Positions 29,973-51,519 of a stretch of 64,000 nt of DNA are shown here, piece by piece (within the stretch, counting starts at the first letter, position 1; every line of letters starts with the position of its first letter). A program made the translations under genes and the position numbers. This DNA is from Escherichia coli (GTDB taxonomy: Bacteria > Pseudomonadota > Gammaproteobacteria > Enterobacterales > Enterobacteriaceae). Under the pieces are notes generated by a model. That model did no database searches, was not told the DNA's origin, and saw nothing but the letters and a program-made list of their open reading frames with translations. Where the stretch lies: assembly GCF_044324785.1 (NCBI RefSeq), contig NZ_CP172127.1; one strand, 5' to 3'.

Positions 29973-30060
29973 ATTATAGGGAGTTCTCCGCAGGCCGCAA
30001 TAGAAAAATTGCAGAAAAATGACTGACTGCTGCATTCCCCAGCAAAACCCCGCTTTATAC
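29973..30060 (-). promoter_or_regulatory. rrn P1 promoter with upstream A/T-rich UP element region
   Basis: Minus-strand TTGCGG(-35) N16 TATAAT(-10), with an A/T-rich tract further upstream. Confidence 0.65.
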
Positions 30061-30171
30061 CTTTTTACGCACAGAGTTATCCACAATCATCAATGTAATT
30101 TCTGTATTTTTCCCACGGTAACCACTGTCAAAATTGTGATCACCATTGAAAGAGAAAAATTCGCGAGCGTT

Positions 30172-30187
30172 GCGCAAACGTTTTCGT
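30172..30187. promoter_or_regulatory. PurR operator (pur box) of purHD
   Basis: GCGCAAACGTTTTCGT, close to the palindromic consensus ACGCAAACGTTTGCGT, directly upstream of a TACAAT -10-like hexamer. Confidence 0.65.
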
Positions 30188-30294
30188 TACAATGCGGGCG
30201 AAAAATAAGGATGCCCCGTTAGGGGCGTTAGCTGAGTTTTTCGCGAAAAATTCAGCTAACGCTCTCTGTAATAGTCAAATCCAGGGGATTTACC

Positions 30295-31884: not shown

Positions 31885-31895
31885 TGGAGCGACAG

Positions 31896-33185
31896 ATGAA
31901 AGTATTAGTGATTGGTAACGGCGGGCGCGAGCACGCGCTGGCCTGGAAAGCGGCCCAGTCGCCGCTGGTTGAAACTGTTTTTGTTGCTCCGGGTAATGCA
32001 GGCACTGCGCTGGAACCCACACTGCAAAACGTCGCTATCGGCGTAACCGATATCCCGGCGCTGCTGGATTTCGCGCAAAACGAAAAGATCGATCTAACCA
32101 TCGTCGGCCCGGAAGCGCCGCTGGTGAAAGGCGTAGTGGATACCTTCCGCGCCGCCGGGCTGAAAATCTTCGGCCCAACCGCAGGTGCCGCGCAGCTGGA
32201 AGGCTCGAAAGCGTTTACCAAGGATTTCCTGGCCCGCCATCAGATCCCTACGGCGGAATACCAGAACTTCACCGAGGTAGAACCTGCGCTGGCGTATCTG
32301 CGTGAGAAAGGCGCGCCAATCGTCATTAAAGCTGACGGTCTGGCTGCCGGGAAAGGCGTTATCGTGGCGATGACGCAGGAAGAAGCGGAAGCGGCTGTTC
32401 ACGATATGCTGGCGGGCAACGCTTTTGGCGACGCGGGGCATCGCATCGTTATCGAAGAGTTCCTCGACGGCGAAGAAGCGAGCTTTATCGTGATGGTGGA
32501 CGGTGAGCATGTGCTGCCGATGGCCACCAGCCAGGATCACAAACGCGTAGGCGATAAAGATACCGGGCCGAACACCGGCGGGATGGGCGCTTACTCCCCT
32601 GCGCCAGTAGTGACCGATGAGGTTCATCAGCGCACGATGGAACGAATCATCTGGCCAACCGTGAAAGGCATGGCGGCAGAAGGCAACACCTACACCGGTT
32701 TTCTCTACGCGGGCCTGATGATCGACAAACAGGGCAATCCGAAGGTTATCGAATTTAACTGCCGCTTTGGCGATCCGGAAACCCAGCCGATTATGCTGCG
32801 CATGAAGTCCGATCTGGTTGAGCTCTGCCTGGCAGCCTGTGAAGGTACGCTTGACGAGAAAACGTCCGAGTGGGATGAACGCGCTTCTCTCGGCGTGGTG
32901 ATGGCTGCGGGTGGATATCCGGGCGATTACCGCACCGGCGATGTGATCCACGGCCTGCCGCTGGAAGAAGTGTCTGACGGCAAAGTGTTCCACGCGGGCA
33001 CGAAACTGGCGGATGACGAGCAGGTAGTGACCAGCGGCGGGCGCGTACTGTGCGTCACCGCGCTGGGTCATACTGTGGCAGAAGCGCAGAAACGCGCTTA
33101 TGCCTTAATGACCGATATCCATTGGGACGACTGCTTCTGCCGGAAAGATATCGGCTGGCGCGCTATCGAACGCGAGCAGAACTAA
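31896..33185 (+). CDS. purD: Phosphoribosylamine-glycine ligase
   Basis: 429 aa from MKVLVIGNGGREHALAWK...; ATP-grasp fold. Confidence 0.95.
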   Translation: MKVLVIGNGGREHALAWKAAQSPLVETVFVAPGNAGTALEPTLQNVAIGVTDIPALLDFAQNEKIDLTIVGPEAPLVKGVVDTFRAAGLKIFGPTAGAAQLEGSKAFTKDFLARHQIPTAEYQNFTEVEPALAYLREKGAPIVIKADGLAAGKGVIVAMTQEEAEAAVHDMLAGNAFGDAGHRIVIEEFLDGEEASFIVMVDGEHVLPMATSQDHKRVGDKDTGPNTGGMGAYSPAPVVTDEVHQRTMERIIWPTVKGMAAEGNTYTGFLYAGLMIDKQGNPKVIEFNCRFGDPETQPIMLRMKSDLVELCLAACEGTLDEKTSEWDERASLGVVMAAGGYPGDYRTGDVIHGLPLEEVSDGKVFHAGTKLADDEQVVTSGGRVLCVTALGHTVAEAQKRAYALMTDIHWDDCFCRKDIGWRAIEREQN

Positions 33186-34507
33186 CGCGACAGTTTTGCC
33201 AAGAGCGTTTTGCGCGTGATCCCTAACTGACGGGCGGCTTCGGTTTTGTTGCCGCCCGTTTTCTCCAGTGCCGCAAGAATCACCTCTTTTTCGACTTCCA
33301 CCAGCGGCTGAATATCCTGACTTTGTACCAGCGGGATCGGCGTACTCGCAATCGCCAGCGGCAGCTCGCGTTCGGAAATATATTCCCCGGTCAGCAGCAC
33401 CACCGCCCGTTCCACCGCGTTTTCCAGTTCACGAATATTTCCCGGCCAGTCGTAGTGAATCAGCAGATCCATCGCCTGGGGCGTAAAACCTTTTACCGCC
33501 TTGCGATTACGCTCGGCAAAGCGCTGAAGAAAATGGTTTGCCAGCAGAGGAATATCTTCCCGCCGCTGACGCAGCGACGGAACTTCAATCGCCACCACGT
33601 TCAGGCGATAGTAGAGATCCTGGCGAAAACGCCCGGCATTCACCTCTGCGGCAAGATCGCGATGAGTCGCCGCAATCAGCCGGACATCAACCGAGATGGT
33701 CTGGTTGCTGCCGACACGCTGAACTTCGCGCTCCTGAATCGCACGCAGCAGACGAACCTGCATCATCGGCGAGATATCGCCAATTTCATCGAGAAACAGC
33801 GTGCCGCCGTCCGCCTCAACAAAGCGCCCTTCCCGGCGTTTGTCGGCTCCGGTAAACGCCCCTTTTTCGTGACCGAACAATTCAGATTCCAGCAAGGATT
33901 CGTTGAGTGCCGCACAGTTGAGCGTTACCAGTGGTTTTTCACTCCGTGCGCTACTGGCGTGAATCGCCCTGGCGACCAGCTCTTTACCGGTGCCGGAATC
34001 GCCGTGGATCAGCACTGTGGCTTCCGATGGCGCGACGAGGGCGATTTCACTGAGCAGGTGTTGCATCGCCGGGCTTTTACCGACCATACCGAACTGGCTG
34101 GCAGACACCGCAGGCGTTTCAGCGTCAATACTGTGCGTATGCGCGAGCACCTTTTCCAGCGTCGCCTGCAGGTTATCGAAATCCAGCGGCTTGATGAGAT
34201 AATCCAGCGCCCCGGTTTTCAGTGCCTCTACCGCCGTCTCGACGCTGGAGTATGCGGTCATAATCAGTACCGGAATCGCCGGATTTAACGCTTTGATCTC
34301 TTTTAGCGTGGCAATGCCGTCCATCTCCGCCATTCGCACATCGCAAAGCACAAGATCAAAAACTCGCTCCCGCACCTGTTCCAGCGCCTGTCGCCCGCTG
34401 TTCGCCAGCGCGACGTTATAGCCCCAGCCGCGCAGTAAAGCCTGCAAAATAGTGCAGTGGCTAATGTCATCATCCACCACCAGAATATCGATATTATCGT
34501 GCGTCAT
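33182..34507 (-). CDS. zraR: Sigma-54-dependent response regulator ZraR (HydG)
   Basis: 441 aa; receiver domain, AAA+ sigma54-activator domain (GESGTGKE, GAFTGA) and C-terminal HTH. Confidence 0.95.
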
Positions 34508-35880
34508 CCTTGTGGGTCCTTACGCGTAATATTGACCGGAAGCCAGAGGGTGAACGTTGCGCCTTTTCCCTCCTGGCTTGCGACCTGAATTGTACCACCG
34601 TGTTGTTCAACAATATTATGCACGACCGCCAGCCCCAGTCCGGTACCTTCGGCTTTGGTGGTGAAGTACGGGGTGAAGATGGCTTCAAGCTGATCTGCCG
34701 CAATTCCCTTACCGCTGTCGGTAACGCTGATTTTCACGCCCGCGCCGCTTTCGCTGGCCGTCACGCTAATCACGCCATGCTGACCAATCGCCTGAATAGC
34801 ATTGAGATAGAGATTCAACAGGACCTGAGTCAGCCTGTCCGGATCGGCCTGAATTTCCGGTAATGTGTCGTTGGCGGTAAAGCGTAACTGGATCTCCCGG
34901 CTGTTTGCATCCTGGCTTACCAGCTGTAATGAGTGGTTAATCAGCGTGTTGAGATCCACCGCCTGCAAAGCCAGATGCGTTGGCTTGACCAGTTCCAGCA
35001 ACTCGCTTACCACGCGGTTTAAACGGTCGGCTTCTTTCGCCATCACCTGCGCCAGTTGATGCGCTTCTCCCCCTGCTGGCGCACGTTCGGCAAAGTATTT
35101 CGCCAGCCCTTTAATCGAGGAAAGTGGGTTACGGATTTCGTGGGCGACGCCTGCCGCAAGATGCCCCAGTGCCACCAGCTTCTCTTTGCGCTTCATTTCA
35201 TCCTGCAATAGCTGCCGCGAGCGCAGATATCGGCGATACCAGAAGAATGACAACACGCTTGCCAGCAAGACCGTCGCCAGAGCGAAGAGGATAATCAGGG
35301 TATTTCTCTGCTCACGATCCTCAGCACTCACAATGTTACTGGCGTCGAAAGCGATAAAAATTGCTTGTGGTGTCGCGGCATACTGCTGCATATGGCGCAT
35401 CCGGTGCATTCCAGCAGCAAACATCGGTTGAAACTGGCGATAAATTTCCAGAACAGGCTCGCCGTCTGCGCTATCGATCCGCCGCCACGCTTCTTCATCT
35501 CCCGGATGTAACTGCTGCATTTTCTGCGGGGAATAAAGCTGTTTTCCCACCATGCCGGAGTTGCTATGCATCACGATTGTTCCTTGTTCATCCGTGACCG
35601 CAAACCAACGTACACCAGGCTGCCCGGCCATTTCTTCCAGTAATGCCTGCTGCTGCGCATGATGCATGCGCATCCCCATGCCGACGCGCGAGCCGGATTC
35701 GAGAGCACGGATAAGTACACTGCCTTTTTCCAGCTGCGTTTGTCTGGCGGCGGCAGTCTCGCGCCCATAATCGCGAATCACTGTCACCGCAAACAGCCCC
35801 ACCAGCCCAACAATGACCACGGGGAGGATCGCGCTTAACCATTTAGCTAAGGAATCTTTAGAACGTTGCATAAAACGCAT
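34504..35880 (-). CDS. zraS: Sensor histidine kinase ZraS (HydH)
   Basis: 458 aa; transmembrane sensor, H-box (HEIRNPL) and ATPase domain; start overlaps the zraR... stop region. Confidence 0.9.
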   Translation of the reverse strand: MRFMQRSKDSLAKWLSAILPVVIVGLVGLFAVTVIRDYGRETAAARQTQLEKGSVLIRALESGSRVGMGMRMHHAQQQALLEEMAGQPGVRWFAVTDEQGTIVMHSNSGMVGKQLYSPQKMQQLHPGDEEAWRRIDSADGEPVLEIYRQFQPMFAAGMHRMRHMQQYAATPQAIFIAFDASNIVSAEDREQRNTLIILFALATVLLASVLSFFWYRRYLRSRQLLQDEMKRKEKLVALGHLAAGVAHEIRNPLSSIKGLAKYFAERAPAGGEAHQLAQVMAKEADRLNRVVSELLELVKPTHLALQAVDLNTLINHSLQLVSQDANSREIQLRFTANDTLPEIQADPDRLTQVLLNLYLNAIQAIGQHGVISVTASESGAGVKISVTDSGKGIAADQLEAIFTPYFTTKAEGTGLGLAVVHNIVEQHGGTIQVASQEGKGATFTLWLPVNITRKDPQG

Positions 35881-35911
35881 CTTCTTCTTTGCCTGCTCAT
35901 CCCTTTCTGAC

Positions 35912-35929
35912 AGCAGAAATCATGCCATC
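35912..35929 (-). promoter_or_regulatory. Sigma-54 promoter for zraSR
   Basis: Minus-strand TGGCATgatttCTGCT with GG-N10-GC spacing. Confidence 0.6.
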
Positions 35930-35978
35930 TTTTAGCAGCGCTTACCCTGCGCTGTAACACAAAGACTTAAGTTTCAAT

Positions 35979-36024
35979 GAGTAAAAATGACTCGCCACCC
36001 ACAGCAGGCGAGTCATTTTTACTC
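35979..36024. promoter_or_regulatory. ZraR upstream activator site: large inverted repeat
   Basis: gagtaaaaatgactcgcc-N10-ggcgagtcatttttactc, perfect 18-bp arms between the divergent sigma-54 promoters. Confidence 0.7.
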
Positions 36025-36065
36025 GTTTATCATGCCAGATTACCCGTCATATCAGCGTTTCGTTG

Positions 36066-36082
36066 TTGGCACGAAAGATGCA
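36066..36082 (+). promoter_or_regulatory. Sigma-54 promoter for zraP
   Basis: TGGCACgaaagaTGCA, near-consensus -24/-12 elements, about 35 nt upstream of the zraP ATG. Confidence 0.75.
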
Positions 36083-36117
36083 ATACCCAAAGTAAGACAA
36101 CCACTGGAGGATTAACC

Positions 36118-36543
36118 ATGAAACGGAACACGAAAATTGCCCTGGTGATGATGGCGCTTTCAGCAATGGCGATGGGATCGACATCTGCATTTGCTCACGG
36201 CGGACACGGGATGTGGCAACAAAATGCCGCGCCCTTGACCAGCGAACAACAAACAGCGTGGCAGAAAATCCATAATGACTTTTACGCTCAAAGCAGCGCA
36301 CTGCAACAGCAACTGGTGACGAAGCGTTATGAATACAATGCCCTGTTAGCCGCGAACCCACCGGATAGCAGCAAAATTAACGCGGTCGCCAAAGAGATGG
36401 AGGCTTTGCGTCAGTCGTTAGATGAGTTACGGGTGAAACGGGATATTGCGATGGCTGAAGCGGGTATTCCGCGCGGAGCCGGAATGGGCATGGGCTACGG
36501 CGGCTGCGGTGGTGGCGGTCATATGGGTATGGGCCACTGGTAA
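36118..36543 (+). CDS. zraP: Zinc-resistance-associated periplasmic chaperone ZraP
   Basis: 141 aa from MKRNTKIALVMMALSAMAMG... with GGAGG RBS; signal peptide; Gly/His/Met-rich C-terminus. Confidence 0.9.
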   Translation: MKRNTKIALVMMALSAMAMGSTSAFAHGGHGMWQQNAAPLTSEQQTAWQKIHNDFYAQSSALQQQLVTKRYEYNALLAANPPDSSKINAVAKEMEALRQSLDELRVKRDIAMAEAGIPRGAGMGMGYGGCGGGGHMGMGHW

Positions 36544-36544
36544 A

Positions 36545-37246
36545 TCAGAACGTTTTCTCGTTGGGTTGCCAGCGACAGAAATCAGAGTTTGCCACTAACA
36601 GTAATTGCGAACCTTCGGGCGCTTCCAGCCATGCCACGCTGACATCAACAGAAGAGCGGCTCTGGCGGCGCTCGATATGCGCTATCGCCTGCGAATCTAA
36701 ATCAGGTTTAATGGTTTGCCCTTCGCAGGTGGTCACGGTCTGTTCCATCGCATGCCAGCGCCCCTGGCGCAGCACGACTCTTCCCTGACGTAAGGCATCG
36801 CTAATCTGGCGGATCTGATCAGCACGATAACGGTATAAATCGATTTGGTCGTTAGAAAGCTGCTGCTTTTCCCCATCGGATTCACGTTGCATAAAGCTCA
36901 GATCGCCGCGATCGTCAAAACGCGCGCGAATGTTCACCGGCGGTTTGCTGTAAACATTGATATTGATGAGCGTGAGGTTATCGCCCTGCCAGCGATACTC
37001 TCGCGTCGTGGTATCGCCACTGCGCCACGGGCTAAACACGGCAAGCAGATGCACATTATCGCCACTGTCTTTTCGCCAGATGCGTACCGCGCCCTGGTCT
37101 TCAGCAAATCCACTGGCGGTAAAGGGAGGAAGTGAAGAGTTGTGACTACAGGCAGTGAGAAACAGAGCGCCAGCCAGCATCAATGATCGACGCCAGAAAG
37201 ACAAAAGGGGTGAAACCACCCCTTCGTTAAAACTGTTCACTGCCAC
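36545..37246 (-). CDS. yjaH: DUF1481 family protein
   Basis: 233-aa ORF; conserved neighbour of hupA. Confidence 0.75.
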   Translation of the reverse strand: MAVNSFNEGVVSPLLSFWRRSLMLAGALFLTACSHNSSLPPFTASGFAEDQGAVRIWRKDSGDNVHLLAVFSPWRSGDTTTREYRWQGDNLTLININVYSKPPVNIRARFDDRGDLSFMQRESDGEKQQLSNDQIDLYRYRADQIRQISDALRQGRVVLRQGRWHAMEQTVTTCEGQTIKPDLDSQAIAHIERRQSRSSVDVSVAWLEAPEGSQLLLVANSDFCRWQPNEKTF

Positions 37247-37252
37247 GCAATC

Positions 37253-37525
37253 TTACTTAACTGCGTCTTTCAGTGCCTTGCCAGAAACAAATGCCGGTAC
37301 GTTAGCTGCGGCAATTTTGATTTCTTTACCGGTCTGCGGGTTGCGGCCAGTACGCTCAGCGCGGTGGTTCACTTTGAAGGTACCGAAACCAACCAGTTGT
37401 ACAGCATCGCCTTCTTTCAGAGACTCAGTAATTGCAGCCAGAGTGGACTCCAGAGCAGCTTTAGCCTGGGTTTTGGACAGTTCTGCTTTCTCTGCAATTA
37501 CATCAATCAGTTGAGTCTTGTTCAT
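37253..37525 (-). CDS. hupA: Nucleoid protein HU-alpha
   Basis: 90-aa [93 protein letters not shown]. Confidence 0.97.
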
Positions 37526-37711
37526 AAGTTATCCTTACAATGTGTTTATCGCTTGCTAAGCATCGAGTGCGACGGAAATGCCAGAATAGCACTCTCCTGC
37601 ATACACGCACCGATAGCCACTTTTTTTCGCCCCCCAAATGTAGACCAGACGGGGGGCGAAAGGGAAGACTCCAGGTACGACAAATCAGGCGTTAAATCAC
37701 GTTTTCTGGTC

Positions 37712-38302
37712 TTATTGCTGAAAAATTATACCAATATTGCTCTCACCCGCCTCACGCAGGTCTGCCCTAAGGCCTTTTATCAGCTCGATATCGCGTTCTT
37801 CGCACTCAGCTAAAAGTCGGAATATTTCCCACTGAATATCCCATTCTTGCTCTACAGCTGGGTTTTCTTTGAGCTCTTCATCGCTCATTTCGCGACCAGC
37901 CTGAGTCATTTCCAGCATCGCAACGGTCGTGATGGAGGTCTTACTCACTTCCACCGCGTGTTCGAGCGTTTCACCACTCAAACGCGAATGGACCAGTTCA
38001 CTTAACGCCACGCATGCATCGATTGCCGGATAAACGCCGTACAGATCGAAATCGTCGGCTGAAGGAATCGCTTCTTCAAATTTCTCCAGTTGGCTGTCGA
38101 AATTTACTTTTGCGTCTTTAACGGTCAGCGTTTCCCAGATGAGATCGAGAATACGGCGGTAAATTTGCCCATCACCAAAACCGGTTTGCTGGCAGAACAT
38201 GGCGTAATTGGGGTACATGCGTTCGCATAAGCAAGCCATGAAAGTGACATGCTGCCAGCTTTCCAGGCGCTCCAGACGCAGATGAATTGGGTTTTGTAAC
38301 AT
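37712..38302 (-). CDS. yjaG: DUF416 family protein
   Basis: 196-aa ORF; conserved position between nfi and hupA. Confidence 0.8.
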   Translation of the reverse strand: MLQNPIHLRLERLESWQHVTFMACLCERMYPNYAMFCQQTGFGDGQIYRRILDLIWETLTVKDAKVNFDSQLEKFEEAIPSADDFDLYGVYPAIDACVALSELVHSRLSGETLEHAVEVSKTSITTVAMLEMTQAGREMSDEELKENPAVEQEWDIQWEIFRLLAECEERDIELIKGLRADLREAGESNIGIIFQQ

Positions 38303-38344
38303 GTTGAGTTCTCAAATACGGAAATTATCCGCAGTTTACCTGAA

Positions 38345-39016
38345 TTAGGGCTGATTTGCTGTATAGCGCACGAACGCCGGACGTTCCGAGGCCACCGCGT
38401 CCGCCCAGCGCGTTGGCTCCGGCAGACGATAGCCTTTCATGCAGCGTTGTACCCACGCCAGCGCGCTGTCCACGCTGACCCGATGGCCGGTAGTGATAAA
38501 CAACGGGTTACAGCGCGCTTTGCTGCGCCAGACCCAGGCCAGCTGCTCGCCTTTATCCATCAGAGGGGCCAGCGCGCCCGGTTCGCTGGAGAGCGGTTCG
38601 AATTTACCGCAGAGCCGTTTTTTCGCCACGCCAATGGTCGGCACATCCACCAGCAAACCAAAGTGGCTGGCGACGCCAAGACGGCGAGGATGCGAGATCC
38701 CGTGACCATCGACAAACACTAAATCCGGCTTTTGCGACAGCATCTCCCACGCTGCCAGCAGCGCAGGATATTCGCGGAAGGAAAGAAAACCTGGAATGTA
38801 AGGCATGGTGGTGGCGATGCGGGCCACTTTATACTCCACCAGCTCAAGCGAGGGGTATTTCAGCAGCACCATCGCCGCTCGCGTCACTTCTCCGCCCTGC
38901 TCAAACCCAACATCGGCTCCGGCGATCAGATCCGGCGGATCTTTATCGAGTCGATCCTCACGGATCACAGAAGAAGCCAGTTCAATTTGTTGAGCGCGTA
39001 ATGACGCGAGATCCAT
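38345..39016 (-). CDS. nfi: Endonuclease V
   Basis: 223-aa [43 protein letters not shown]... Confidence 0.92.
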
Positions 39017-39025
39017 AATCGCTCC

Positions 39026-40090
39026 TTAGCGGTGATATTGTTCAGACAAGCGATGCACTGCCTCCACAAACACGCCAGCATGTTCTGGCGGCACATCCTG
39101 ATGAATGCCGTGACCAAGGTTAAAGACATGACCTTCGCCGTGACCGAAACCTGCAAGTATAGTCGCTACTTCTTCTTCAATGCGGGCTGGCGGCGCGTAC
39201 AGCATCGACGGATCCATATTGCCCTGCAACGCGACTTTATTGCCCACGCGGCGGCGCGCATCGGCGATGTCCGTTGTCCAGTCGAGGCCCAGCGCATCGC
39301 AACCGGTTTCTGCCATTGCTTCCAGCCACTGTCCGCCGCCTTTGGTAAACAGCGTGACCGGTACGCGGCGACCGTCGTTTTCACGCAGTAAACCATCAAC
39401 AATTCTATGCATGTAATAGAGCGAGAACTGTTGATAATCGCGCCCGGTAAGCACGCCGCCCCAGGTGTCGAAAATCATCACTGCCTGAGCACCGGCTTTA
39501 ATCTGCGCATTCAGATACAAAGTGACGCTTTTCGCCAGTTTATCGAGTAGCGCGTGCAGCGCCTGCGGATCGGCATACATCATTTTTTTGATCACGGTGA
39601 AGGCTTTGCTGCTGCCGCCTTCCACCATATAGGTCGCCAGCGTCCACGGGCTGCCGGAAAAACCAATCAGCGGCACTTCGCCTTTCAGTTTGCGACGAAT
39701 GGTACGCACCGCGTTCATCACGTAACCCAGCTCATCTTCCGGGTCCGGAATTGGCAGTTTATCGACGTCGGCTTTGCAGGTGACTGGCGAGGTAAAACGC
39801 GGACCTTCTCCGGCTTCAAAATAGAGCCCTAACCCCATCGCGTCCGGCACGGTGAGGATATCGGAAAAGAGGATCGCCGCATCCAGCGGGTAGCGACGCA
39901 GCGGTTGCAAAGTCACTTCGCACGCCAGCTCGGCGTTTTTGCACAGCGACATAAAATCGCCCGCCTGGGCGCGCGTGGCTTTATATTCCGGTAGATAGCG
40001 ACCCGCCTGGCGCATCATCCATACTGGAGTGACATCAACGGGCTGGCGCAGCAGCGCCCGCAGATAACGATCGTTTTTAAGTTCGGTCAT
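39026..40090 (-). CDS. hemE: Uroporphyrinogen decarboxylase
   Basis: 354-aa [39 protein letters not shown]... Confidence 0.95.
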
Positions 40091-40129
40091 TTTGGCTGTT
40101 CCTTAGTGCGTCAGGCGGTCAGTGTATCA

Positions 40130-40903
40130 TCACTCATACTCTGCCCGACACATCGCCACCGTATCTTCTATCAGACGGCGCGCTACGGTGCCGGGCGGCG
40201 GGAGTAACGGCAAATCGTCATAGCGATACCAGTTCGCCTCGAGCAATTCTTTCGGGTCGATAACGATCTCGCCGCTGTCGTATTCTGCCATAAACGCGGT
40301 CATTAAAGACTGAGGAAACGGCCACGGCTGGGAAGTCACGTAACGCAAGTTTTTAACTTTAATTCCGCTCTCTTCCATCACTTCCCGCGCGACAGCCTGC
40401 TCGAGGGTTTCGCCCACTTCGACGAATCCGGCAAGTACCGTATGGACACCGTTACGATGGCGGGTATGCTGGGCGAGGAGGATCGAATCATCGCGACGGA
40501 TGGCAACAATAATGCAGGGGGCGATTTGCGGATAGTAACGCTCACGGCAATGGCTGCACAGCATCGCCCATTCGGTTTTGCTTGGATACATTTCATGCCC
40601 GCAGTAACCACAGTATTTATGCGATCGGTAAAACTCCGCCAGTTGCACGCCACGTCCGGCCAGTTGAAACAGCCCAACATCGAGATCAATGACCTGACGT
40701 ACCGACCCCATATCGTGACGACGCTGCTGTTGTATTAACCAAACAGGTTCCCCCTGCCATTCGCCGATTTGTATTGCGCGCTGACCCACAAGATCGAAAT
40801 TTGCCGCTTCGCCATATGGCAATTCTCCCTTCGGCAACCATAATTTTTGTTCATGGCTGACGACCCACCAGCCGTGATCTAATTTTTCAATTATACGATC
40901 CAT
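40130..40903 (-). CDS. nudC: NADH pyrophosphatase (Nudix hydrolase)
   Basis: 257 aa; zinc ribbon (CGYCGH...CSHC) and Nudix box ([22 protein letters not shown]). Confidence 0.92.
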
Positions 40904-40997
40904 AGCTCTTGCACTACCTTTGCATCACTGGCATGTTTAACATGGTTTTTACATTTCTCACTGAGCAGTTTTTGAATACAAACTTGCGGAGTCAATC

Positions 40998-41474
40998 ATG
41001 CTTAACCAGCTCGATAACCTGACGGAGCGCGTCAGAGGAAGTAACAAACTGGTTGATCGCTGGCTACATGTACGTAAGCATCTGCTCGTGGCTTACTACA
41101 ATCTGGTTGGCATTAAGCCTGGCAAAGAATCGTACATGAGGCTAAACGAAAAAGCCCTTGATGATTTTTGTCAGAGCCTGGTCGATTACTTGTCTGCCGG
41201 GCATTTCAGTATTTATGAGCGCATTCTTCATAAGCTGGAAGGCAACGGGCAACTCGCGCGCGCCGCGAAGATTTGGCCGCAACTCGAAGCCAATACCCAA
41301 CAGATTATGGATTACTACGATTCCAGCCTGGAAACCGCCATCGATCACGATAATTACCTTGAGTTTCAACAGGTTTTATCTGACATCGGCGAGGCGCTGG
41401 AAGCACGCTTTGTGCTGGAAGATAAGCTGATTCTGCTGGTGCTTGACGCCGCCCGCGTCAAACATCCTGCTTGA
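40998..41474 (+). CDS. rsd: Regulator of sigma D (anti-sigma-70)
   Basis: 158-aa ORF MLNQLDNLTERVRGSNKLVDRWLHVRKHLLVAYYNLVG... Confidence 0.92.
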   Translation: MLNQLDNLTERVRGSNKLVDRWLHVRKHLLVAYYNLVGIKPGKESYMRLNEKALDDFCQSLVDYLSAGHFSIYERILHKLEGNGQLARAAKIWPQLEANTQQIMDYYDSSLETAIDHDNYLEFQQVLSDIGEALEARFVLEDKLILLVLDAARVKHPA

Positions 41475-41504
41475 GTTCTGCGCTGTTAACGCGTAATTTA
41501 CATT

Positions 41505-41620
41505 CAACGCCCCGTTTGTGGGGGCTAATTTCTTGTCGGAGTGCCTTAACTGGCTGAGACCGTTTATTCGGGATCCGCGGAACCTGATCAGGCTAATACC
41601 TGCGAAGGGAACAAGAGTTA
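41505..41620 (+). promoter_or_regulatory. TPP (thi-box) riboswitch in the thiC leader
   Basis: Conserved thi-box elements ggggctaa..., CTGAGA, GGAACCTGATCAGGCTAATACCTGCGAAGGGA. Confidence 0.85.
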
Positions 41621-41704
41621 ATCTGCTATCGCATCGCCCCTGCGGCGATCGTCTCTTGCTTCATCCGTCGTCTGACAAGCCACGTCCTTAACTTTTTGGA
41701 ATGA

Positions 41705-44230
<2,526 letters not shown>

Positions 44231-44238
<8 letters not shown>

Positions 44239-44968
44239 CCGTGATTTTATGCGTTATAGCCGCCAAATCCTGCTCGACGATATCGCTCTTGACGGGCAGC
44301 AAAAACTGCTCGACAGCCAGGTGCTGATTATTGGTCTTGGCGGGCTGGGTACACCTGCTGCGCTGTACCTGGCGGGTGCTGGCGTCGGGACGCTGGTACT
44401 GGCAGATAACGACGATGTGCATTTAAGCAATCTGCAACGACAAATCCTCTTTACCACTGAAGATATCGATCGCCCGAAATCGCAGGTCAGCCAACAGCGA
44501 CTGACACAGTTGAATCCCGATATTCAACTGACAGCACTACAACAACGGTTAACGGGTGAGGCGCAAGCCGATGTGGTGCTCGACTGTACCGACAATATGG
44601 CGACTCGTCAGGAGATTAATACCGCCTGCGTGGCACTCAACACGCCGCTTATCACCGCCAGCGCGGTCGGATTTGGCGGTCAGTTGATGGTACTGACGCC
44701 GCCCTGGGAGCAGGGGTGTTACCGCTGCCTGTGGCCAGATAACCAGGAGCCTGAACGCAACTGCCGCACGGCGGGCGTGGTTGGCCCGGTGGTCGGGGTT
44801 ATGGGCACTTTGCAGGCACTGGAAGCCATTAAGTTATTAAGCGGTATAGAGACGCCTGCGGGAGAACTCCGACTGTTCGACGGTAAGTCGAGCCAGTGGC
44901 GCAGCCTGGCTTTGCGCCGCGCCAGTGGTTGCCCGGTATGCGGAGGAAGCAATGCAGATCCTGTTTAA
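44231..44968 (+). CDS. thiF: ThiS adenylyltransferase
   Basis: 245 aa from [15 protein letters not shown]...; E1-like Rossmann fold GLGGLG; the ORF track's longer form overlaps thiE. Confidence 0.9.
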
Positions 44969-45152
44969 CGATCAACCGATGCAGTGCGCCGCCGGGCAAA
45001 CGGTTCACGAACTACTGGAGCAACTCGACCAACGACAAGCGGGCGCGGCTCTGGCGATTAATCAGCAAATCGTCCCGCGTGAGCAGTGGGCGCAACATAT
45101 CGTGCAGGATGGCGACCAGATCCTGCTTTTTCAGGTTATTGCAGGGGGTTGA
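44952..45152 (+). CDS. thiS: Sulfur-carrier protein ThiS
   Basis: 66 aa [24 protein letters not shown]...[11 protein letters not shown] with C-terminal Gly-Gly. Confidence 0.92.
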
Positions 45153-45153
45153 G

Positions 45154-45924
45154 ATGTTACGTATTGCGGACAAAACGTTTGATTCACATCTGTTTACCGG
45201 CACCGGGAAATTCGCCTCTTCACAACTGATGGTGGAGGCGATCCGCGCTTCCGGCAGCCAGCTGGTGACACTGGCGATGAAACGCGTCAACTTGCGCCAG
45301 CACAACGACGCAATCCTCGAACCGCTTATCGCGGCGGGTGTGACCCTGCTGCCGAATACTTCCGGGGCGAAAACAGCGGAAGAAGCCATTTTCGCCGCCC
45401 ATCTGGCACGTGAAGCATTAGGCACAAACTGGCTAAAATTAGAGATTCACCCTGACGCCCGCTGGCTGTTGCCCGATCCCATCGAAACCCTGAAAGCCGC
45501 CGAAACGCTGGTACAACAGGGATTTGTCGTGCTGCCTTACTGCGGGGCCGATCCGGTATTGTGTAAACGTCTGGAAGAAGTCGGCTGTGCAGCGGTGATG
45601 CCGCTCGGCGCGCCGATTGGCTCGAATCAGGGACTGGAAACCCGCGCCATGCTGGAGATTATTATCCAGCAGGCCACCGTTCCGGTGGTTGTCGATGCTG
45701 GCATCGGCGTTCCCAGCCATGCCGCGCAGGCGCTGGAAATGGGGGCCGACGCGGTGTTAGTGAATACGGCGATTGCCGTCGCGGACGATCCCGTCAACAT
45801 GGCGAAGGCATTTCGTCTGGCGGTAGAAGCAGGCCTGCTGGCACGTCAGTCCGGACCGGGCAGCCGCAGTCATTTTGCTCATGCCACCAGCCCGCTGACT
45901 GGATTTCTGGAGGCATCGGCATGA
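45154..45924 (+). CDS. thiG: Thiazole synthase
   Basis: 256 aa from [20 protein letters not shown]... Confidence 0.92.
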
Positions 45925-47054
45925 AAACCTTCAGCGATCGCTGGCGACAACTGGACTGGGACGACATCCGCCTGCGTATCAACGGCAAAACGGCTGCTGA
46001 CGTAGAGCGGGCGCTAAATGCCTCGCAACTCACCCGCGACGATATGATGGCGCTGTTATCGCCAGCCGCCAGTGGCTATCTGGAACCACTGGCCCAACGG
46101 GCGCAGCGTCTGACCCGTCAGCGATTTGGCAACGTCGTCAGCTTCTACGTCCCGCTTTATCTTTCCAATCTTTGCGCTAACGACTGCACGTACTGCGGAT
46201 TTTCCATGAGCAATCGCATCAAGCGCAAAACGCTGGATGAAGCGGATATTGCCAGGGAAAGCGCCGCTATACGGGAGATGGGCTTTGAACATCTGCTATT
46301 AGTCACTGGTGAACATCAGGCGAAAGTGGGGATGGATTACTTTCGTCGTCATCTCCCTGCCCTGCGTGAACAGTTCTCTTCACTACAGCTGGAAGTGCAA
46401 CCGCTGGCGGAGGCGGAATACGCCGAGTTAAAGCAACTTGGTCTGGATGGCGTGATGGTTTATCAGGAGACATATCACGAGGCGACTTATGCCCGCCATC
46501 ATCTGAAAGGCAAAAAACAGGACTTCTTCTGGCGGCTGGAAACGCCGGATCGGCTGGGGCGTGCGGGGATTGATAAGATAGGCCTCGGCGCGCTAATTGG
46601 CCTTTCCGACAGCTGGCGCGTTGACTGCTATATGGTTGCCGAACATTTGCTATGGCTGCAACAGCATTACTGGCAAAGCCGCTACTCTGTCTCCTTCCCT
46701 CGTCTGCGTCCGTGTACTGGCGGCATTGAGCCGGCGTCGATTATGGATGAACGCCAGTTAGTGCAAACCATCTGCGCCTTCCGGCTGCTTGCACCGGAGA
46801 TTGAACTGTCACTCTCCACGCGGGAATCACCGTGGTTTCGCGATCGCGTTATTCCGCTGGCAATTAATAACGTCAGCGCTTTTTCGAAAACGCAGCCAGG
46901 GGGTTATGCCGACAATCACCCCGAGCTGGAACAGTTCTCACCACACGACGATCGCAGACCTGAAGCGGTTGCCGCCGCGTTAACCGCTCAGGGTTTGCAG
47001 CCGGTATGGAAAGACTGGGACAGCTATCTGGGACGCGCCTCGCAAAGGCCATGA
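45921..47054 (+). CDS. thiH: 2-iminoacetate synthase (tyrosine lyase), radical SAM
   Basis: 377-aa ORF; [10 protein letters not shown] radical-SAM motif. Confidence 0.92.
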
Positions 47055-47247
47055 GACAGAATGTAAGAACGTAAATTTATTCCGAGCCGCTACGGAAGAT
47101 GAAAAACGCAAGGTTGTTGAAAGCGTTGTGTTTTTTTATGGTAGTGCCGTCAGCAGGAATGTTGTCCAGGGCGAAAAGCTTCTTCCTCGTTTCGCCCTGC
47201 CTTTCTTAATATTTCCCGTGAAGACTTTGCCCTCTGAATAACTCCCA

Positions 47248-47276
47248 TAAAAAAACCCGCCGAAGCGGGTTTTTAC
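47248..47276 (-). terminator. Intrinsic terminator of the rplKAJL-rpoBC operon
   Basis: Minus-strand cgtaaaaacccgcttcggcgggttttttt hairpin plus U-tract, about 20 nt after the rpoC stop. Confidence 0.85.
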
Positions 47277-47295
47277 GTTATTTGCGGATTAACGA

Positions 47296-50200
47296 TTACT
47301 CGTTATCAGAACCGCCCAGACCTGCGTTCAGCAGTTCTGCCAGGCTGGCAGATGCGTCTTCTGCAGTCACCTGCGGTGCAGCCGGAGCTTCACCCGCAGC
47401 ACGGCGACGCATACGATCCTGGTGATACGCGTAACCGGTACCAGCCGGGATCAGACGACCCACGATAACGTTCTCTTTCAGGCCGCGCAGTTCGTCGCGT
47501 TTGCCCGCAACGGCTGCTTCGGTCAGCACGCGAGTGGTCTCCTGGAACGATGCCGCGGAGATGAAGGACTCGGTTGCCAGAGACGCTTTGGTGATACCCA
47601 GCAGATCGCGGGAGTAAGTTGCCCCCACTTTGCCGTTCGCTTCCAGTTCGCGGTTTGCGATCTTGACGCGAGAGTATTCAACCTGTTCGCCTTCCAGGAA
47701 GTCGGAGCTGCCCGCGTTAACGATGGTAGCTTTACGCAGCATCTGACGAACGATAACTTCGATGTGTTTATCGTTAATCTTAACGCCCTGCAGACGGTAT
47801 ACGTCCTGTACTTCGTTAACGATGTAACGAGTAACAGCATGAACACCACGCAGACGCAGAATGTCGTGCGGCGCTTCCGGACCGTCGGAAATTACGTCAC
47901 CACGTTCTACACGTTCACCTTCGAACACGTTGAGCTGACGCCATTTCGGAATCATCTCTTCGTACGGATCGCTACCGTCTACCGGGGTGATAACCAGACG
48001 ACGTTTACCTTTGGTTTCTTTACCGAAGGAAACGATACCGCTGATTTCAGCCAGGATTGCCGGCTCTTTCGGACGACGTGCTTCGAACAGGTCCGCAACG
48101 CGCGGCAGACCACCGGTGATGTCCTTGGTACCGCCGGATTCCTGCGGAATACGCGCCAGGGTGTCACCAGAGCTGATCTGTACGCCATCTTCCAGCTGAA
48201 CAATCGCTTTACCTGGCAGGAAGTACTGCGCAGGCATATCGGTACCCGGGATCAGAACGTCGTTACCCTGAGCATCAACGATTTTCAGTGCCGGACGCAG
48301 ATCTTTACCACCTGCGGTACGTTCTGCGGAATCCAGAACCACCAGCGAAGACAGACCGGTCAGTTCGTCGGTCTGACGCGTAATGGTCTGGCCGTCGATC
48401 ATGTCAGTAAAGCGTACAAAACCGCTTACTTCGGTGATAACCGGCATGGTGTGCGGGTCCCAGTTTGCAACGGTTTCGCCGCCAGCAACCTGTTCGCCAT
48501 CGCCTTTCGCCAGTACCGCACCGTAAGGTACTTTGTAGCTTTCTTTGGTACGACCGAATTCGTCGATCAGTTTCAGTTCGGTGTTACGGGAAGTGATAAC
48601 CAGTTTACCGCTGGAGTTCACAACCGACTTCACGTTGCTGAGCTTGATGCTACCTTTGTTTTTCACCTGGATGCTGGATTCAGCAGCCGCACGAGATGCC
48701 GCACCACCGATGTGGAACGTACGCATGGTCAGCTGTGTACCCGGTTCACCGATGGACTGTGCCGCGATAACACCGATTGCTTCACCTTTGTTGATGATGT
48801 GGCCACGCGCCAGGTCACGACCGTAGCAGTGCGCACATACACCAAAGTCGGTGTCACAAGATACAACAGAACGTACTTTAACCGCGTCGACAGAGTTCTC
48901 TTCCAGCAGGTCACACCACTGTTCGTGCAGCAGCGTGTTGCGCGGAACGAGGATATCAGCAGTACCCGGCTTCAGAACGTCTTCAGCAGTTACACGACCC
49001 AGTACGCGATCGCGCAGCGGCTCTTTAACGTCACCACCTTCGATAACCGGAGTCATCATGATACCTTCATGAGTACCACAATCGTCTTCGGTAACCACCA
49101 GGTCCTGCGCCACGTCAACCAGACGACGAGTCAGGTAACCGGAGTTCGCAGTTTTCAGTGCGGTATCCGCCAGACCTTTACGCGCACCGTGGGTGGAGAT
49201 GAAGTACTGGAGTACGTTCAGACCTTCACGGAAGTTCGCGGTGATTGGCGTTTCGATGATGGAGCCATCCGGCTTCGCCATCAGACCACGCATACCAGCA
49301 AGCTGACGAATCTGTGCCGCAGAACCACGCGCACCGGAGTCGGCCATCATGTAGATGCTGTTGAAGGAAACCTGCTTCTCTTCCTGACCGTCACGGTTAA
49401 TCACGGTTTCAGTTTGCAGGTTATCCATCATCGCTTTGGATACACGATCGTTCGCCGCAGCCCAGATATCGATAACTTTGTTGTAGCGTTCGCCCGCAGT
49501 TACCAGACCAGACTGGAACTGCTCCTGAATTTCAGCAACTTCTGCTTCTGCCTCGGAGATGATTTCGTGTTTCTTCTCCGGGATGACCATGTCATCGATA
49601 CCAACAGATGCACCAGAACGCGCTGCATAGGCAAAGCCGGTATACATGATCTGGTCCGCAAAAATAACAGTCGGTTTCAGACCGAGAATGCGGTAGCAGG
49701 TGTTCAGCATTTTGGAGATTGCTTTTTTACCCAGCGCCTGGTTGACGATGGAGTAAGGCAGACCTTTCGGTACAATCATCCACAGAATGGCACGGCCAAC
49801 AGTCGTGTCTTTCAGGCTGGTTTTCGCTACTAATTCACCGTTAGCATCTTTTTCATACTCGGTGATACGCACTTTAACGCGCGCATGCAGAGAAGCCAGA
49901 CCAGAGCGATACAGACGTTCTGCTTCTTTCGGGCCAGTCAGCACCATGCCTTCGCCTTTGGCGTTAACACAGTCACGGGTCATGTAGTACAGACCCAGTA
50001 CAACGTCCTGAGACGGAACGATGATTGGTTCGCCGTTCGCCGGGGACAGGATGTTGTTGGTAGACATCATCAGCGCACGCGCTTCCAGCTGGGCTTCCAG
50101 CGTCAGCGGTACGTGAACTGCCATCTGGTCACCATCGAAGTCGGCGTTATATGCCGCACAAACCAGCGGGTGCAGCTGGATAGCTTTACCTTCGATCAGT

Positions 50201-51519
50201 ACCGGTTCAAATGCCTGGATACCCAGACGGTGCAGAGTCGGTGCACGGTTCAGCAGTACCGGGTGTTCGCGGATAACTTCGTCCAGGATATCCCAAACGA
50301 CAGCTTCTTCGCGCTCAACCATTTTCTTCGCAGCTTTAATGGTGGTAGCAAGACCACGCAGTTCCAGCTTGCCGTAGATGAACGGTTTGAACAGCTCCAG
50401 CGCCATTTTCTTCGGCAGACCGCACTGATGCAGACGCAGGTATGGACCTACGGTGATTACAGAACGACCGGAGTAGTCAACACGCTTACCGAGCAGGTTC
50501 TGACGGAAACGACCCTGTTTACCTTTGATCATGTCGGCCAAAGATTTCAGAGGACGCTTGTTAGAACCGGTGATCGCACGACCGCGACGACCGTTATCCA
50601 GCAGGGCGTCTACCGCTTCCTGCAGCATACGTTTTTCGTTACGTACGATGATGTCCGGCGCAGCCAGATCCAGCAGACGTTTCAGACGGTTGTTACGGTT
50701 AATGACGCGACGATACAGATCGTTCAGGTCAGAAGTCGCGAAACGACCACCATCCAGCGGAACCAGCGGACGCAGATCTGGCGGCAGTACCGGCAGAACG
50801 GTCAGGATCATCCACTCTGGTTTGTTACCAGACTGAACGAACGCTTCCAGCAGTTTGATACGCTTGGTCAGCTTTTTACGCTTGGTTTCGGAGTTGGTTT
50901 CGTTCAGCTCTTCACGCAGCTGTTCGCACTCTTGCTCCAGATCCATGCTCTTCAGCAGGGCCTGAATTGCTTCCGCACCCATTTTCGCGTCGAATTCGTC
51001 ACCGAACTCTTCCAGCGCGTCCAGATACTGCTCTTCAGTCAGGATCTGCTGGCGTTCCAGGTTGGTCATACCGCCTTCAATAACCACATAGGATTCGAAG
51101 TACAGTACGCGTTCGATATCGCGCAGCGGCATATCGAGCAGCAGGCCGATACGGGACGGCAGCGATTTCAGGAACCAGATGTGCGCAGTCGGGGAAGCCA
51201 GTTCGATGTGGCCCATACGCTCACGGCGTACTTTAGTCTGGGTCACTTCAACGCCGCACTTCTCACAGATGACGCCACGGTGTTTCAGGCGCTTGTACTT
51301 ACCGCACAGGCACTCGTAATCTTTTACCGGCCCAAAGATACGGGCGCAGAAAAGGCCGTCACGTTCTGGTTTGAACGTACGGTAGTTGATGGTTTCCGGC
51401 TTTTTAACTTCACCGAAAGACCATGAACGGATCATGTCTGGCGAAGCCAGAGCAATTTTGATCGCATCAAACTCTTCGGTTTTAGTCTGCGCTTTCAGAA
51501 ACTTTAATAAATCTTTCAC
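47296..51519 (-). CDS. rpoC: RNA polymerase beta' subunit
   Basis: 1407-aa [67 protein letters not shown]...; catalytic NADFDGD. Confidence 0.98.

What the first reader, a model, noticed from the sequence alone, without database searches (positions are those of the whole stretch)
47055..47295. Short rpoC-thiH interval: yjaZ/htrC appears to be missing
As I recall the K-12 map, a ~180-codon gene (yjaZ/htrC) sits between the rpoC terminator and thiH. Here the interval is only 241 bp and holds the rpoC intrinsic terminator plus a second hairpin (ggcgaaaagcttcttcctcgtttcgcc, 47172-47198), with no ORF of appreciable length on either strand. This could be a strain-specific deletion or my mis-recollection of K-12.
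Basis: inference. Interest (0 to 1): 0.3.

Follow-up and report, generated by a model that had tools for sequence, protein, structure and literature searches.

The report
Ancestral, cargo-free rpoC–thiH spacer
The short gap between rpoC and thiH is not a deletion: it is the original Escherichia arrangement, shared by about 30% of E. coli, and K-12-type strains later gained a small plasmid-related cassette (yjaZ plus the sRNA sroH) there.

Summary
thiH ends at 47054, rpoC (minus strand) ends at 47296, and the 241-bp gap has no yjaZ. In K-12 the same gap is 1161 bp. The "strain-specific deletion" reading fails. The short junction occurs in 1630 of 5426 complete E. coli genomes (CFT073 and Nissle 1917 among them). 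E. albertii-, E. fergusonii- and E. ruysiae-labelled loci have the same 241-bp interval with the same 27-bp spacer. The cassette is AT-rich and lacks IS-type ends. Its yjaZ-sroH pair recurs on plasmids of Escherichia, Enterobacter and Serratia. The window therefore keeps the ancestral empty state of a gene-turnover hot spot between two convergent terminator regions; other genera carry 1-5.6 kb of unrelated genes there. This is ordinary and largely known, since sroH absence in B2/D strains is published. One thing is less expected. The "second hairpin" belongs to a three-hairpin module at a fixed distance after thiH, conserved with compensatory changes across Enterobacteriaceae, absent from Rfam, and of unknown function.

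The parts
47052..47054 (+). thiH stop codon (TGA); left edge of the interval
   Evidence: ORF 45921-47054; 98-99% identical to E. coli ThiH clusters; annotated thiH at the same position in strains AST215 and N3
47102..47137 (.). Hairpin H1: A-tract, stem 47106-47113/47124-47131, T7 run. Probable intrinsic terminator of thiCEFSGH, and bidirectional by sequence
   Evidence: Sequence. Salmonella and C. koseri have a perfect GC-rich stem plus T7 at the aligned position. 8 of 9 pairs show compensatory changes across 35 sequences. The simple scan did not flag it because the loop exceeds 8 nt. Terminator function is inferred
47149..47166 (+). Hairpin H-mid: GUCAGCA-GGAA-UGUUGUC, with GGA in the loop (one U-U mismatch in Escherichia)
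   Evidence: RNAalifold consensus; 92% of cells paired. There is no compensatory change, and in the metagenome set its sequence was fixed by the search pattern
47167..47199 (+).
   Evidence: Fold -15 kcal/mol. Identical in four Escherichia species. Compensatory changes in Trabulsiella, Salmonella and metagenome contigs, 3 of 9 pairs, 94% of cells paired. No U-tract follows it in most genera
47217..47243 (.). 27-bp spacer; the site where K-12-type genomes carry the 947-bp sroH-yjaZ cassette instead
   Evidence: Pairwise alignment with K-12: window 46955-47216 = L001 1752-2013, and window 47244-47396 = L001 2961-3113. The spacer is orthologous in E. albertii, E. fergusonii and E. ruysiae loci. 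It has no significant similarity to the cassette ends
47244..47281 (-). rpoC (rplKAJL-rpoBC) intrinsic terminator: hairpin 47251-47274 with U7 on the minus strand
   Evidence: Terminator scan; fold; 100% identical in K-12 and in Trabulsiella, Citrobacter and Pseudescherichia loci
47296..47298 (-). rpoC stop codon (TAA); right edge of the interval
   Evidence: ORF 47296-51519. Its translation is an exact match to RpoC found on thousands of public contigs

Best explanation
The 241-bp interval is the ancestral, cargo-free form of the rpoC-thiH intergenic region of the genus Escherichia. It consists of four parts: (i) a three-hairpin module tied to the 3' end of thiH, comprising H1 (the thi-operon terminator), a GGA-loop hairpin, and H2 with a CUUCCUC loop; (ii) a 27-bp spacer; (iii) the rpoC terminator; and (iv) 14 bp (47282-47295) between that terminator and the rpoC stop codon. 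In the allele carried by K-12 and about 69% of E. coli, a 947-bp AT-rich cassette replaced the 27-bp spacer. The cassette encodes YjaZ and, convergent to it, the sRNA SroH. The replacement was probably by illegitimate recombination, and the cassette belongs to a yjaZ-sroH module otherwise found on plasmids. The slot between the two convergent terminator regions is a neutral landing site that holds different cargo in different Enterobacteriaceae. What is shown: the coordinates, the allele frequencies, the outgroup states, and the plasmid homologs. What is inferred: the direction of the event (a gain), the donor type, the recombination mechanism, and any function of H-mid and H2. My best guess for H-mid and H2, at low confidence (about 0.3), is a structured 3'-UTR element of the thi mRNA that affects 3'-end formation or stability or binds a protein.
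For: Alignment with K-12 gives exact breakpoints and a 27-bp versus 947-bp replacement. The 947 bp contain sroH (Rfam RF00372, 201 bits) and yjaZ (NCBIfam NF007263, E=7e-130). The short junction is in 1630 of 5426 complete genomes, including CFT073 and Nissle 1917; the cassette is in 3717-3741. Loci carrying ThiH proteins labelled E. albertii, E. fergusonii and E. ruysiae all have a 241-bp interval. Those loci are more divergent from the window than E. coli loci are (thi operon 93.8-94.6% versus about 97%; rpoC 97.5-98.8% versus 99.2-99.5%). They share the 27-bp spacer. Cassette GC is 41.5% against 52% for the window. YjaZ homologs occur on 559 plasmid records. The closest non-coli homologs (78% and 70% identity) sit on plasmid-like contigs beside RdgC, Dam, HigB and UmuDC genes. 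sroH lies convergently next to yjaZ homologs on those contigs and on Enterobacter pS51A and Serratia pE46_1. None of 42 metagenome contigs and none of the Salmonella, Citrobacter, Trabulsiella or Pseudescherichia loci has YjaZ at this site; their thiH-rpoC gaps range from 1.0 to 5.6 kb and hold other genes.
Against: A genome labelled E. coli E69 has an rpoC 3' end closest to the E. ruysiae locus (98.9%), yet it carries the cassette at the same junctions, with yjaZ only 91.3% identical to K-12. The cassette is therefore old and crosses species lines. Both alleles may have coexisted for a long time, so the ancestral state rests on parsimony from a few outgroup loci. Species labels come from protein names in the source databases, not from whole-genome typing. 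Skippington & Ragan (PMC3318445) scored sroH as lost in B2+D. The four genomes closest to the window over 17 kb (98.5%) carry the long allele, so the window's lineage could have regained the short allele by recombination. The rest of the source genome could not be searched.
Confidence: 0.85

Rival explanations
1. Lineage-specific deletion: an ancestor of this strain had the K-12-type yjaZ-sroH cassette and lost it by deletion.
For: Published parsimony analysis lists sroH as lost in B2+D, E. coli ATCC 8739, S. flexneri and S. sonnei. The cassette is old enough to be present in a non-coli Escherichia lineage.
Against: A deletion would not recreate a 27-bp spacer that is orthologous to the spacer of E. 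albertii, E. fergusonii and E. ruysiae loci and has no significant similarity to the cassette ends. There is no cassette remnant. The junction is shared by 1630 genomes.
Confidence: 0.05
2. Allelic replacement: the lineage once carried the cassette and later re-acquired the ancestral short allele by homologous recombination across the conserved rpoC and thi flanks.
For: The alleles are distributed as a mosaic. Over 17.3 kb the four best-matching genomes (98.5%: 19KM1776, 7CC, SCU-102, PCN033) span about 920 bp more than the query, consistent with the long allele, whereas N3 and AST215 (98.2-98.3%) have the short one. Short-allele locus L014 has the K-12-like left flank TTAAAAATTCC.
Against: There is no direct evidence of a recombination tract, and the window has no close relative among 5426 genomes (none at 99% or above), so its history cannot be traced here. 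Even if true, the allele present is still the ancestral one.
Confidence: 0.15
3. Assembly or collapse artefact that removed about 0.9 kb.
For: None.
Against: The identical arrangement is found in 1630 complete genomes and in three other species. The junction carries its own conserved 27 bp.
Confidence: 0.01

Closest known systems
rpoC-thiH interval of E. coli CFT073, Nissle 1917 and other genomes with the short junction
   Same: Same 241-bp (or 239-bp) interval, same 27-bp spacer, no annotated feature between thiH and rpoC. The 121-bp junction is 99-100% identical.
   Different: Only point differences. Overall the window is at most 98.5% identical to any complete genome over 17 kb.
E. coli K-12 MG1655 rpoC-yjaZ-sroH-thiH region
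   Same: Flanks are collinear and 97-100% identical. H1, H-mid, H2 and the rpoC terminator are all present.
   Different: K-12 has 947 bp (sroH at L001 2099-2259; yjaZ at 2261-2800) where the window has 27 bp.
sroH RNA (Rfam RF00372) and YjaZ (NCBIfam NF007263, Pfam PF27200)
   Same: These are the two genes that define the alternative allele. SroH function is unknown: a deletion mutant is reported as envelope-stress sensitive, and kbl mRNA binding was shown in vitro (PMC5389530, PMC6172242). The htrC functional designation of yjaZ has been retracted (PMC11551758).
   Different: Neither is present in the window.
rpoC-thiH region of other Enterobacteriaceae (Citrobacter, Trabulsiella, Pseudescherichia, Salmonella)
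   Same: The same convergent thiH and rpoC genes and the same rpoC terminator. Most have the same three-hairpin module after thiH.
   Different: The slot holds other cargo: a PTS IIB/IIA pair, with or without a cold-shock gene, an AraC-type regulator and a hydrolase, or small unannotated ORFs. Gaps are 1.0-5.6 kb.

Membership tests
K-12-type yjaZ-sroH cassette allele | YjaZ coding sequence (NF007263 / PF27200) between rpoC and thiH | tested here: not met
   tblastn of K-12 YjaZ against the window: best E=0.28. No ORF longer than 43 aa in the interval.
K-12-type yjaZ-sroH cassette allele | sroH RNA (RF00372) convergent to yjaZ | tested here: not met
   Rfam E-value scan of 46000-48000 finds no sroH. 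The same model scores 201 bits in K-12.
Ancestral Escherichia short rpoC-thiH allele | Interval of about 241 bp from the thiH stop to the rpoC stop | tested here: met
   47055-47295 = 241 bp. The gene coordinates give 241 bp in L023-L027 and L029-L031 (L028 ends before rpoC).
Ancestral Escherichia short rpoC-thiH allele | Orthologous 27-bp spacer between H2 and the rpoC terminator | tested here: met
   Seven-sequence alignment, 98% mean column identity. The spacer is alignable in all, with substitutions roughly tracking species.
Deletion derivative of the cassette allele | Cassette remnants, or a junction formed from cassette-flanking sequence only | tested here: not met
   The 27 bp at the junction are absent from K-12 and not significantly similar to the cassette ends (135 and 452 of 1000 shuffles score as well).
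IS, transposon or integrase-mediated insertion (for the K-12 cassette) | Terminal inverted repeats, target-site duplication, or a recombinase gene | tested here: not met
   No terminal inverted repeat or direct repeat across the junctions. The cassette encodes only YjaZ and sroH.
Rho-independent terminator | GC-rich stem followed by a U-tract | tested here: met
   rpoC terminator 47251-47274. H1 has a covarying stem plus T7 in Escherichia, Salmonella and Citrobacter. About six metagenome lineages and Trabulsiella lack the U-tract after H1.
   The tail is UGCCUUUCUUAAU in Escherichia and is not U-rich in Salmonella, Citrobacter, Klebsiella-like or Trabulsiella sequences. The conserved loop is not expected of a plain terminator.
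Any described RNA family (Rfam 15) | Score at or above the family gathering threshold | tested here: not met
   The only hits are rsmX, Trp_leader, istR and Leu_leader on the rpoC terminator, at 20-31 bits against thresholds of 41-56.
RelE/ParE-superfamily toxin (YjaZ, the protein absent here) | Significant fold match and a catalytic or antitoxin partner | tested here: inconclusive
   [not shown]

The most novel reading that the evidence does not exclude
The interval is not just two terminators. The module H1, H-mid (GGA loop) and H2 (CUUCCUC loop) at 47102-47199 would be an undescribed, family-wide structured RNA attached to the thiH 3' end, for example a 3'-UTR-derived regulatory RNA or a protein-binding or 3'-end-forming element. 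It also marks one border of a gene-turnover hot spot. Into that hot spot K-12-type E. coli received a plasmid-type YjaZ-SroH pair, whose protein has a RelE/ParE-like fold and which may be a toxin-antitoxin-like protein-RNA module.
Probability: 0.3. Interest if true: 0.5.

Novelty: already known. Interest (0 to 1): 0.2.

Why it matters
For annotation, it means yjaZ and sroH should not be reported as "lost" or "deleted" in this genome or in B2-type strains. They are accessory genes that K-12 gained, so results on SroH or YjaZ from K-12 do not transfer to about 30% of E. coli. It reverses the published "loss" reading for sroH in B2/D strains. It also flags two leads that could be tested cheaply: a conserved structured element after thiH that is in no RNA database, and the constant pairing of sroH with yjaZ on plasmids. 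The pairing is the first contextual clue to the function of two long-uncharacterised K-12 genes.

Tried and rejected
Outgroups were obtained instead through ThiH cluster members and exact-protein look-ups.

(2) Similarity of the 27-bp spacer to either end of the cassette, terminal inverted repeats, and direct repeats across the junctions: none significant. A global alignment with cheap gaps only scattered the 27 bp spuriously.

(3) A 36-codon ORF at 47099-47209 (MKNARLLKALCFFMVV...) is not a gene. Only 13 of 35 homologous sequences have a start codon at the aligned position, 11 have an early stop, and the frame shifts between genera.

(4) H2 loop CUUCCUC pairing with the GGAGGAAG Shine-Dalgarno sequences of thiE and thiS: present in Escherichia, but GAGGAAG is missing from many contigs that keep H2, so there is no consistent co-conservation.

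(5) H2 as the 5' UTR of the PTS IIB/IIA operon of relatives: rejected. In C. koseri and Trabulsiella a CRP-like and operator-like promoter region lies between H2 and the PTS genes (reading of the sequence).

(6) A minus-strand sRNA with its own promoter: a TATTAA box is suitably placed in Escherichia but is not conserved in other genera (reading of the sequence), so this is unsupported. The promoter scan found none.

(7) Weak Rfam hits (rsmX, Trp and Leu leaders, istR) are the rpoC terminator only and fall below threshold.

(8) Literature searches for thiH 3'-UTR or intergenic RNAs and for htrC/rpoC returned nothing.

(9) Pfam (local copy), PHROGs and PADLOC give no family for YjaZ.

Full report
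**What is in the window.** thiH (45921-47054, + strand) and rpoC (47296-51519, - strand) converge on a 241-bp interval, 47055-47295. Only chance-size ORFs of 43 aa or less touch it. The surrounding genes are thiCEFSGH and rpoC of an Escherichia coli-like genome. A 1-kb query across the interval matches 5420 of 5426 complete E. coli genomes at 95-99% identity. The RpoC translation is an exact match to a protein found on thousands of public contigs.

**Comparison with K-12.** In K-12 MG1655 the same interval is 1161 bp and contains yjaZ, annotated as "heat-shock protein C". Pairwise alignment is collinear on both sides: window 46955-47216 matches K-12 locus L001 1752-2013 at 97.3%, and window 47244-47396 matches L001 2961-3113 at 100%. 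In between, 27 bp of the window (47217-47243, CGTGAAGACTTTGCCCTCTGAATAACT) stand opposite 947 bp of K-12.

The 947 bp hold yjaZ (L001 2261-2800; NCBIfam NF007263, E=7e-130). Convergent to it and ending one base from its stop codon is the sRNA gene sroH (Rfam RF00372, 201 bits; gathering threshold 80). The window has neither gene. YjaZ tblastn gives no hit better than E=0.28, blastn with the 947 bp finds nothing, and Rfam finds no sroH.

**It is not strain-specific.** A 121-bp probe centred on the 27-bp spacer is covered at 80% or more in one piece in 1630 of 5426 complete genomes. These include CFT073 and Nissle 1917, which are phylogroup B2 strains by my own knowledge. In the other genomes the two halves of the probe match as separate places. 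The 947-bp K-12 segment is present in 3741 genomes, at 80% coverage or more in 3717, including K-12, B/BL21, O157:H7 and O111. The two counts sum to 5371 of the 5420 genomes that match the flanks, so the two states are almost complementary. Absence of sroH from B2 and D strains has been published, where it was scored as a loss (Skippington & Ragan 2012, PMC3318445).

**Direction of the change.**
- ThiH cluster members labelled E. albertii, E. fergusonii and E. ruysiae were found, and their encoding contigs were fetched. Every locus that reaches rpoC has thiH and rpoC 241 bp apart.
- These loci are more divergent from the window than E. coli loci are. The thi operon is 93.8-94.6% identical against about 97% for E. 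coli loci, and rpoC is 97.5-98.8% against 99.2-99.5%. This is consistent with their being other species.
- The interval aligns base for base with the window, including the 27-bp spacer, whose substitutions roughly follow species.
- A deletion from a cassette-bearing allele cannot recreate this spacer. It has no significant similarity to either end of the cassette, and the cassette has no terminal inverted repeats or flanking direct repeats.
- The cassette is AT-rich, 41.5% GC against 52% for the window.
- YjaZ homologs occur on 559 plasmid records from Klebsiella, Enterobacter, Serratia, Pseudomonas, Vibrio and others.
- The closest non-coli homologs (78% and 70% identity) lie on plasmid-like contigs next to RdgC, Dam methylase, HigB/HTH and UmuDC genes, not next to rpoC.

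I conclude that the window carries the ancestral allele and that K-12-type strains carry an insertion. More exactly, 947 bp replaced 27 bp, with no IS-type or integrase-type signature, so illegitimate recombination is inferred.

**A complication.** The genome labelled E. coli E69 (locus L003) carries the cassette at the same junctions. Its rpoC 3' end is closest to the E. ruysiae locus (98.9%, against 97.3% to E. coli). Its yjaZ is only 91.3% identical to K-12, while its sroH is 98.8% identical. The cassette is therefore old and occurs in more than one Escherichia lineage. Both alleles have probably coexisted for a long time and moved by homologous recombination across the conserved flanks. 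The mosaic pattern among the window's nearest relatives agrees with this: the 98.5% matches have the long allele, and N3 and AST215 have the short one. This leaves open that the window's lineage regained the short allele by recombination. It does not change the conclusion that the allele present is the ancestral one.

**The site is a hot spot.**
- Trabulsiella, C. koseri, C. braakii, Pseudescherichia and an unnamed relative carry a PTS IIB/IIA gene pair between thiH and rpoC, with or without a cold-shock gene, an AraC-type regulator and a hydrolase.
- A Salmonella enterica locus has 1.46 kb with small unannotated ORFs.
- S. arizonae has more than 3.4 kb of AT-rich ORFs after rpoC.
- In the 20 of 42 metagenome contigs from diverse Enterobacteriaceae (ThiH 84-93% identical) that reach rpoC, the thiH-rpoC gap ranges from 1.0 to 5.6 kb; none of the 42 encodes YjaZ.

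The Escherichia 241-bp form is the empty version of this slot.

**What the 241 bp contain.** Besides the rpoC terminator (hairpin 47251-47274) there are three hairpins after thiH.
- H1 has its stem at 47106-47113 and 47124-47131, an A-tract before it and a T7 run after it. It corresponds to a perfect GC-rich stem plus T7 in Salmonella and C. koseri. This is the likely thi-operon terminator, and by sequence it is bidirectional.
- H-mid (47149-47166) has GGA in its loop.
It has a 10-bp stem and a 13-nt loop containing CUUCCUC.

The 162 bp after thiH differ by only a few positions between Escherichia species, while the thi genes differ by about 6%.

A pattern based on H-mid and the 5' arm of H2, written to exclude Escherichia, retrieved 88 metagenome stretches. 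Of these, 43 distinct sequences have the full module, and in all 42 that include the thiH end it starts 104-106 nt after ThiH codon 375.

On a 35-sequence alignment the three-helix structure has 86.4% of cells paired, against 33-46% when the partners are slid. The covariation score is 0.211, against 0.05-0.09 for slid partners, and 0 of 500 shuffles reach it. Eight of 9 pairs in H1 and 3 of 9 in H2 show compensatory changes.

Two caveats apply. The search pattern fixed H-mid and part of H2, so their invariance in the metagenome set is partly by construction. Among loci found independently of the pattern, the module is present in seven (four Escherichia, Salmonella, C. koseri, Trabulsiella) and absent in three (Pseudescherichia, C. 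braakii, L022).

H2 is not followed by a U-tract in most genera, and its loop is conserved, so it is not a plain terminator. No Rfam family matches and I found no paper describing it. A conserved small ORF, pairing with the thiE or thiS ribosome-binding sites, a PTS-operon leader, and a minus-strand sRNA with a conserved promoter were all examined and are not supported. Its function remains unknown. A structured 3'-UTR element of the thi mRNA is my best guess.

**What the cassette is (outside the window).** sroH lies convergently, within 1-11 nt of the stop codon, next to YjaZ homologs in four settings: the 88-kb replicon CP099330.1 (144 bits), two further contigs (144 and 102 bits), the Enterobacter cloacae ColE1-type plasmid pS51A (89 bits), and the Serratia marcescens conjugative plasmid pE46_1 (133 bits). 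It is not found next to a 29%-identical Klebsiella homolog. DNA similarity between K-12 and the 88-kb replicon covers exactly the yjaZ ORF plus sroH nt 30-161, 687 bp at 78.6%. yjaZ-sroH is therefore a conserved mobile protein-RNA pair.

From the literature: SroH has no known function, its deletion mutant is reported as envelope-stress sensitive, and kbl mRNA bound it in vitro (PMC5389530, PMC6172242). The htrC functional designation of yjaZ has been retracted (PMC11551758). The ΔyjaZ::kan allele is used as a linked marker for rpoC alleles (PMC4666387).

**Verdict.** The finding is real but ordinary. The window shows the ancestral, common short allele, and the gene "missing" from it is an accessory cassette that K-12 gained. 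Interest is low (0.2) and the arrangement is already known. The conserved three-hairpin module within the interval and the plasmid-borne yjaZ-sroH pairing are the only parts that deserve follow-up.

Noticed in passing
window 47102-47199: Three-hairpin module after thiH: H1 (terminator), H-mid (GGA loop) and H2 (CUUCCUC loop). It sits at a fixed distance from the thiH stop in Escherichia, Salmonella, C. koseri, Trabulsiella and 42 metagenome contigs, has compensatory changes, is not in Rfam, and has no known function.
   Followed up: partly
L001 2099-2800; L017 6001-6693; L020; L021 5600-6331; L125 2392-3130; L126 3992-4688: sroH is always convergent and immediately adjacent to yjaZ homologs, including on plasmids of Enterobacter and Serratia and on an 88-kb replicon. 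yjaZ-sroH looks like a mobile protein-sRNA module.
   Followed up: partly
[not shown]
   Followed up: partly
L003 (CP089930.1, 'E. coli' E69): The rpoC 3' end is closer to the E. ruysiae locus (98.9%) than to E. coli (97.3%), so the genome may be mislabelled. It carries the cassette at the same junctions with yjaZ 91.3% and sroH 98.8% identical to K-12. sroH is much more conserved than its neighbour.
   Followed up: partly
window 44567 (thiF, 44231-44968): In-frame 18-bp deletion in thiF (LKDAVAR to Q, giving 245 instead of 251 aa). It is absent from 11 other Escherichia loci examined. The effect on ThiF is unknown.
   Followed up: partly
L005 7518-8517; L022 7459-9679; L034 8132-10232; L035 8147-11156; L036 8135-10316; L033 8135-9593; L006 1-3523: The rpoC-thiH slot holds different cargo in each genus: a PTS IIB/IIA pair, a cold-shock gene, an AraC-type regulator plus hydrolase, small ORFs, or AT-rich ORFs. 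The PTS pair may be the older occupant that Escherichia lost.
   Followed up: partly
window 30000-47300: No complete E. coli genome among 5426 is 99% or more identical over 17.3 kb (best 98.5%). The window comes from a lineage without a close complete relative in that collection.
   Followed up: no
window ~39025 (nfi-hemE intergenic): The window lacks about 140 bp that strain N3 has between nfi and hemE (L032 9525-9663), possibly a REP-type intergenic element.
   Followed up: no
window 47099-47209: A 36-codon ORF (MKNARLLKALCFFMVVPSAGMLSRAKSFFLVSPCLS) overlaps the hairpins. It is open in Escherichia, but the start codon and reading frame are not conserved in other genera, so it is not a gene.
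   Followed up: yes
L004 (NZ_JAGWDK010000421.1, 240 bp): A 240-bp contig in a Bradyrhizobium assembly carries the exact E. coli-type rpoC 3' end. It is probably contamination of that assembly.
   Followed up: no
PMC3318445, gain/loss table: The published analysis lists sroH as lost in B2+D. The outgroup loci examined here indicate that its absence there is the ancestral state.
   Followed up: partly
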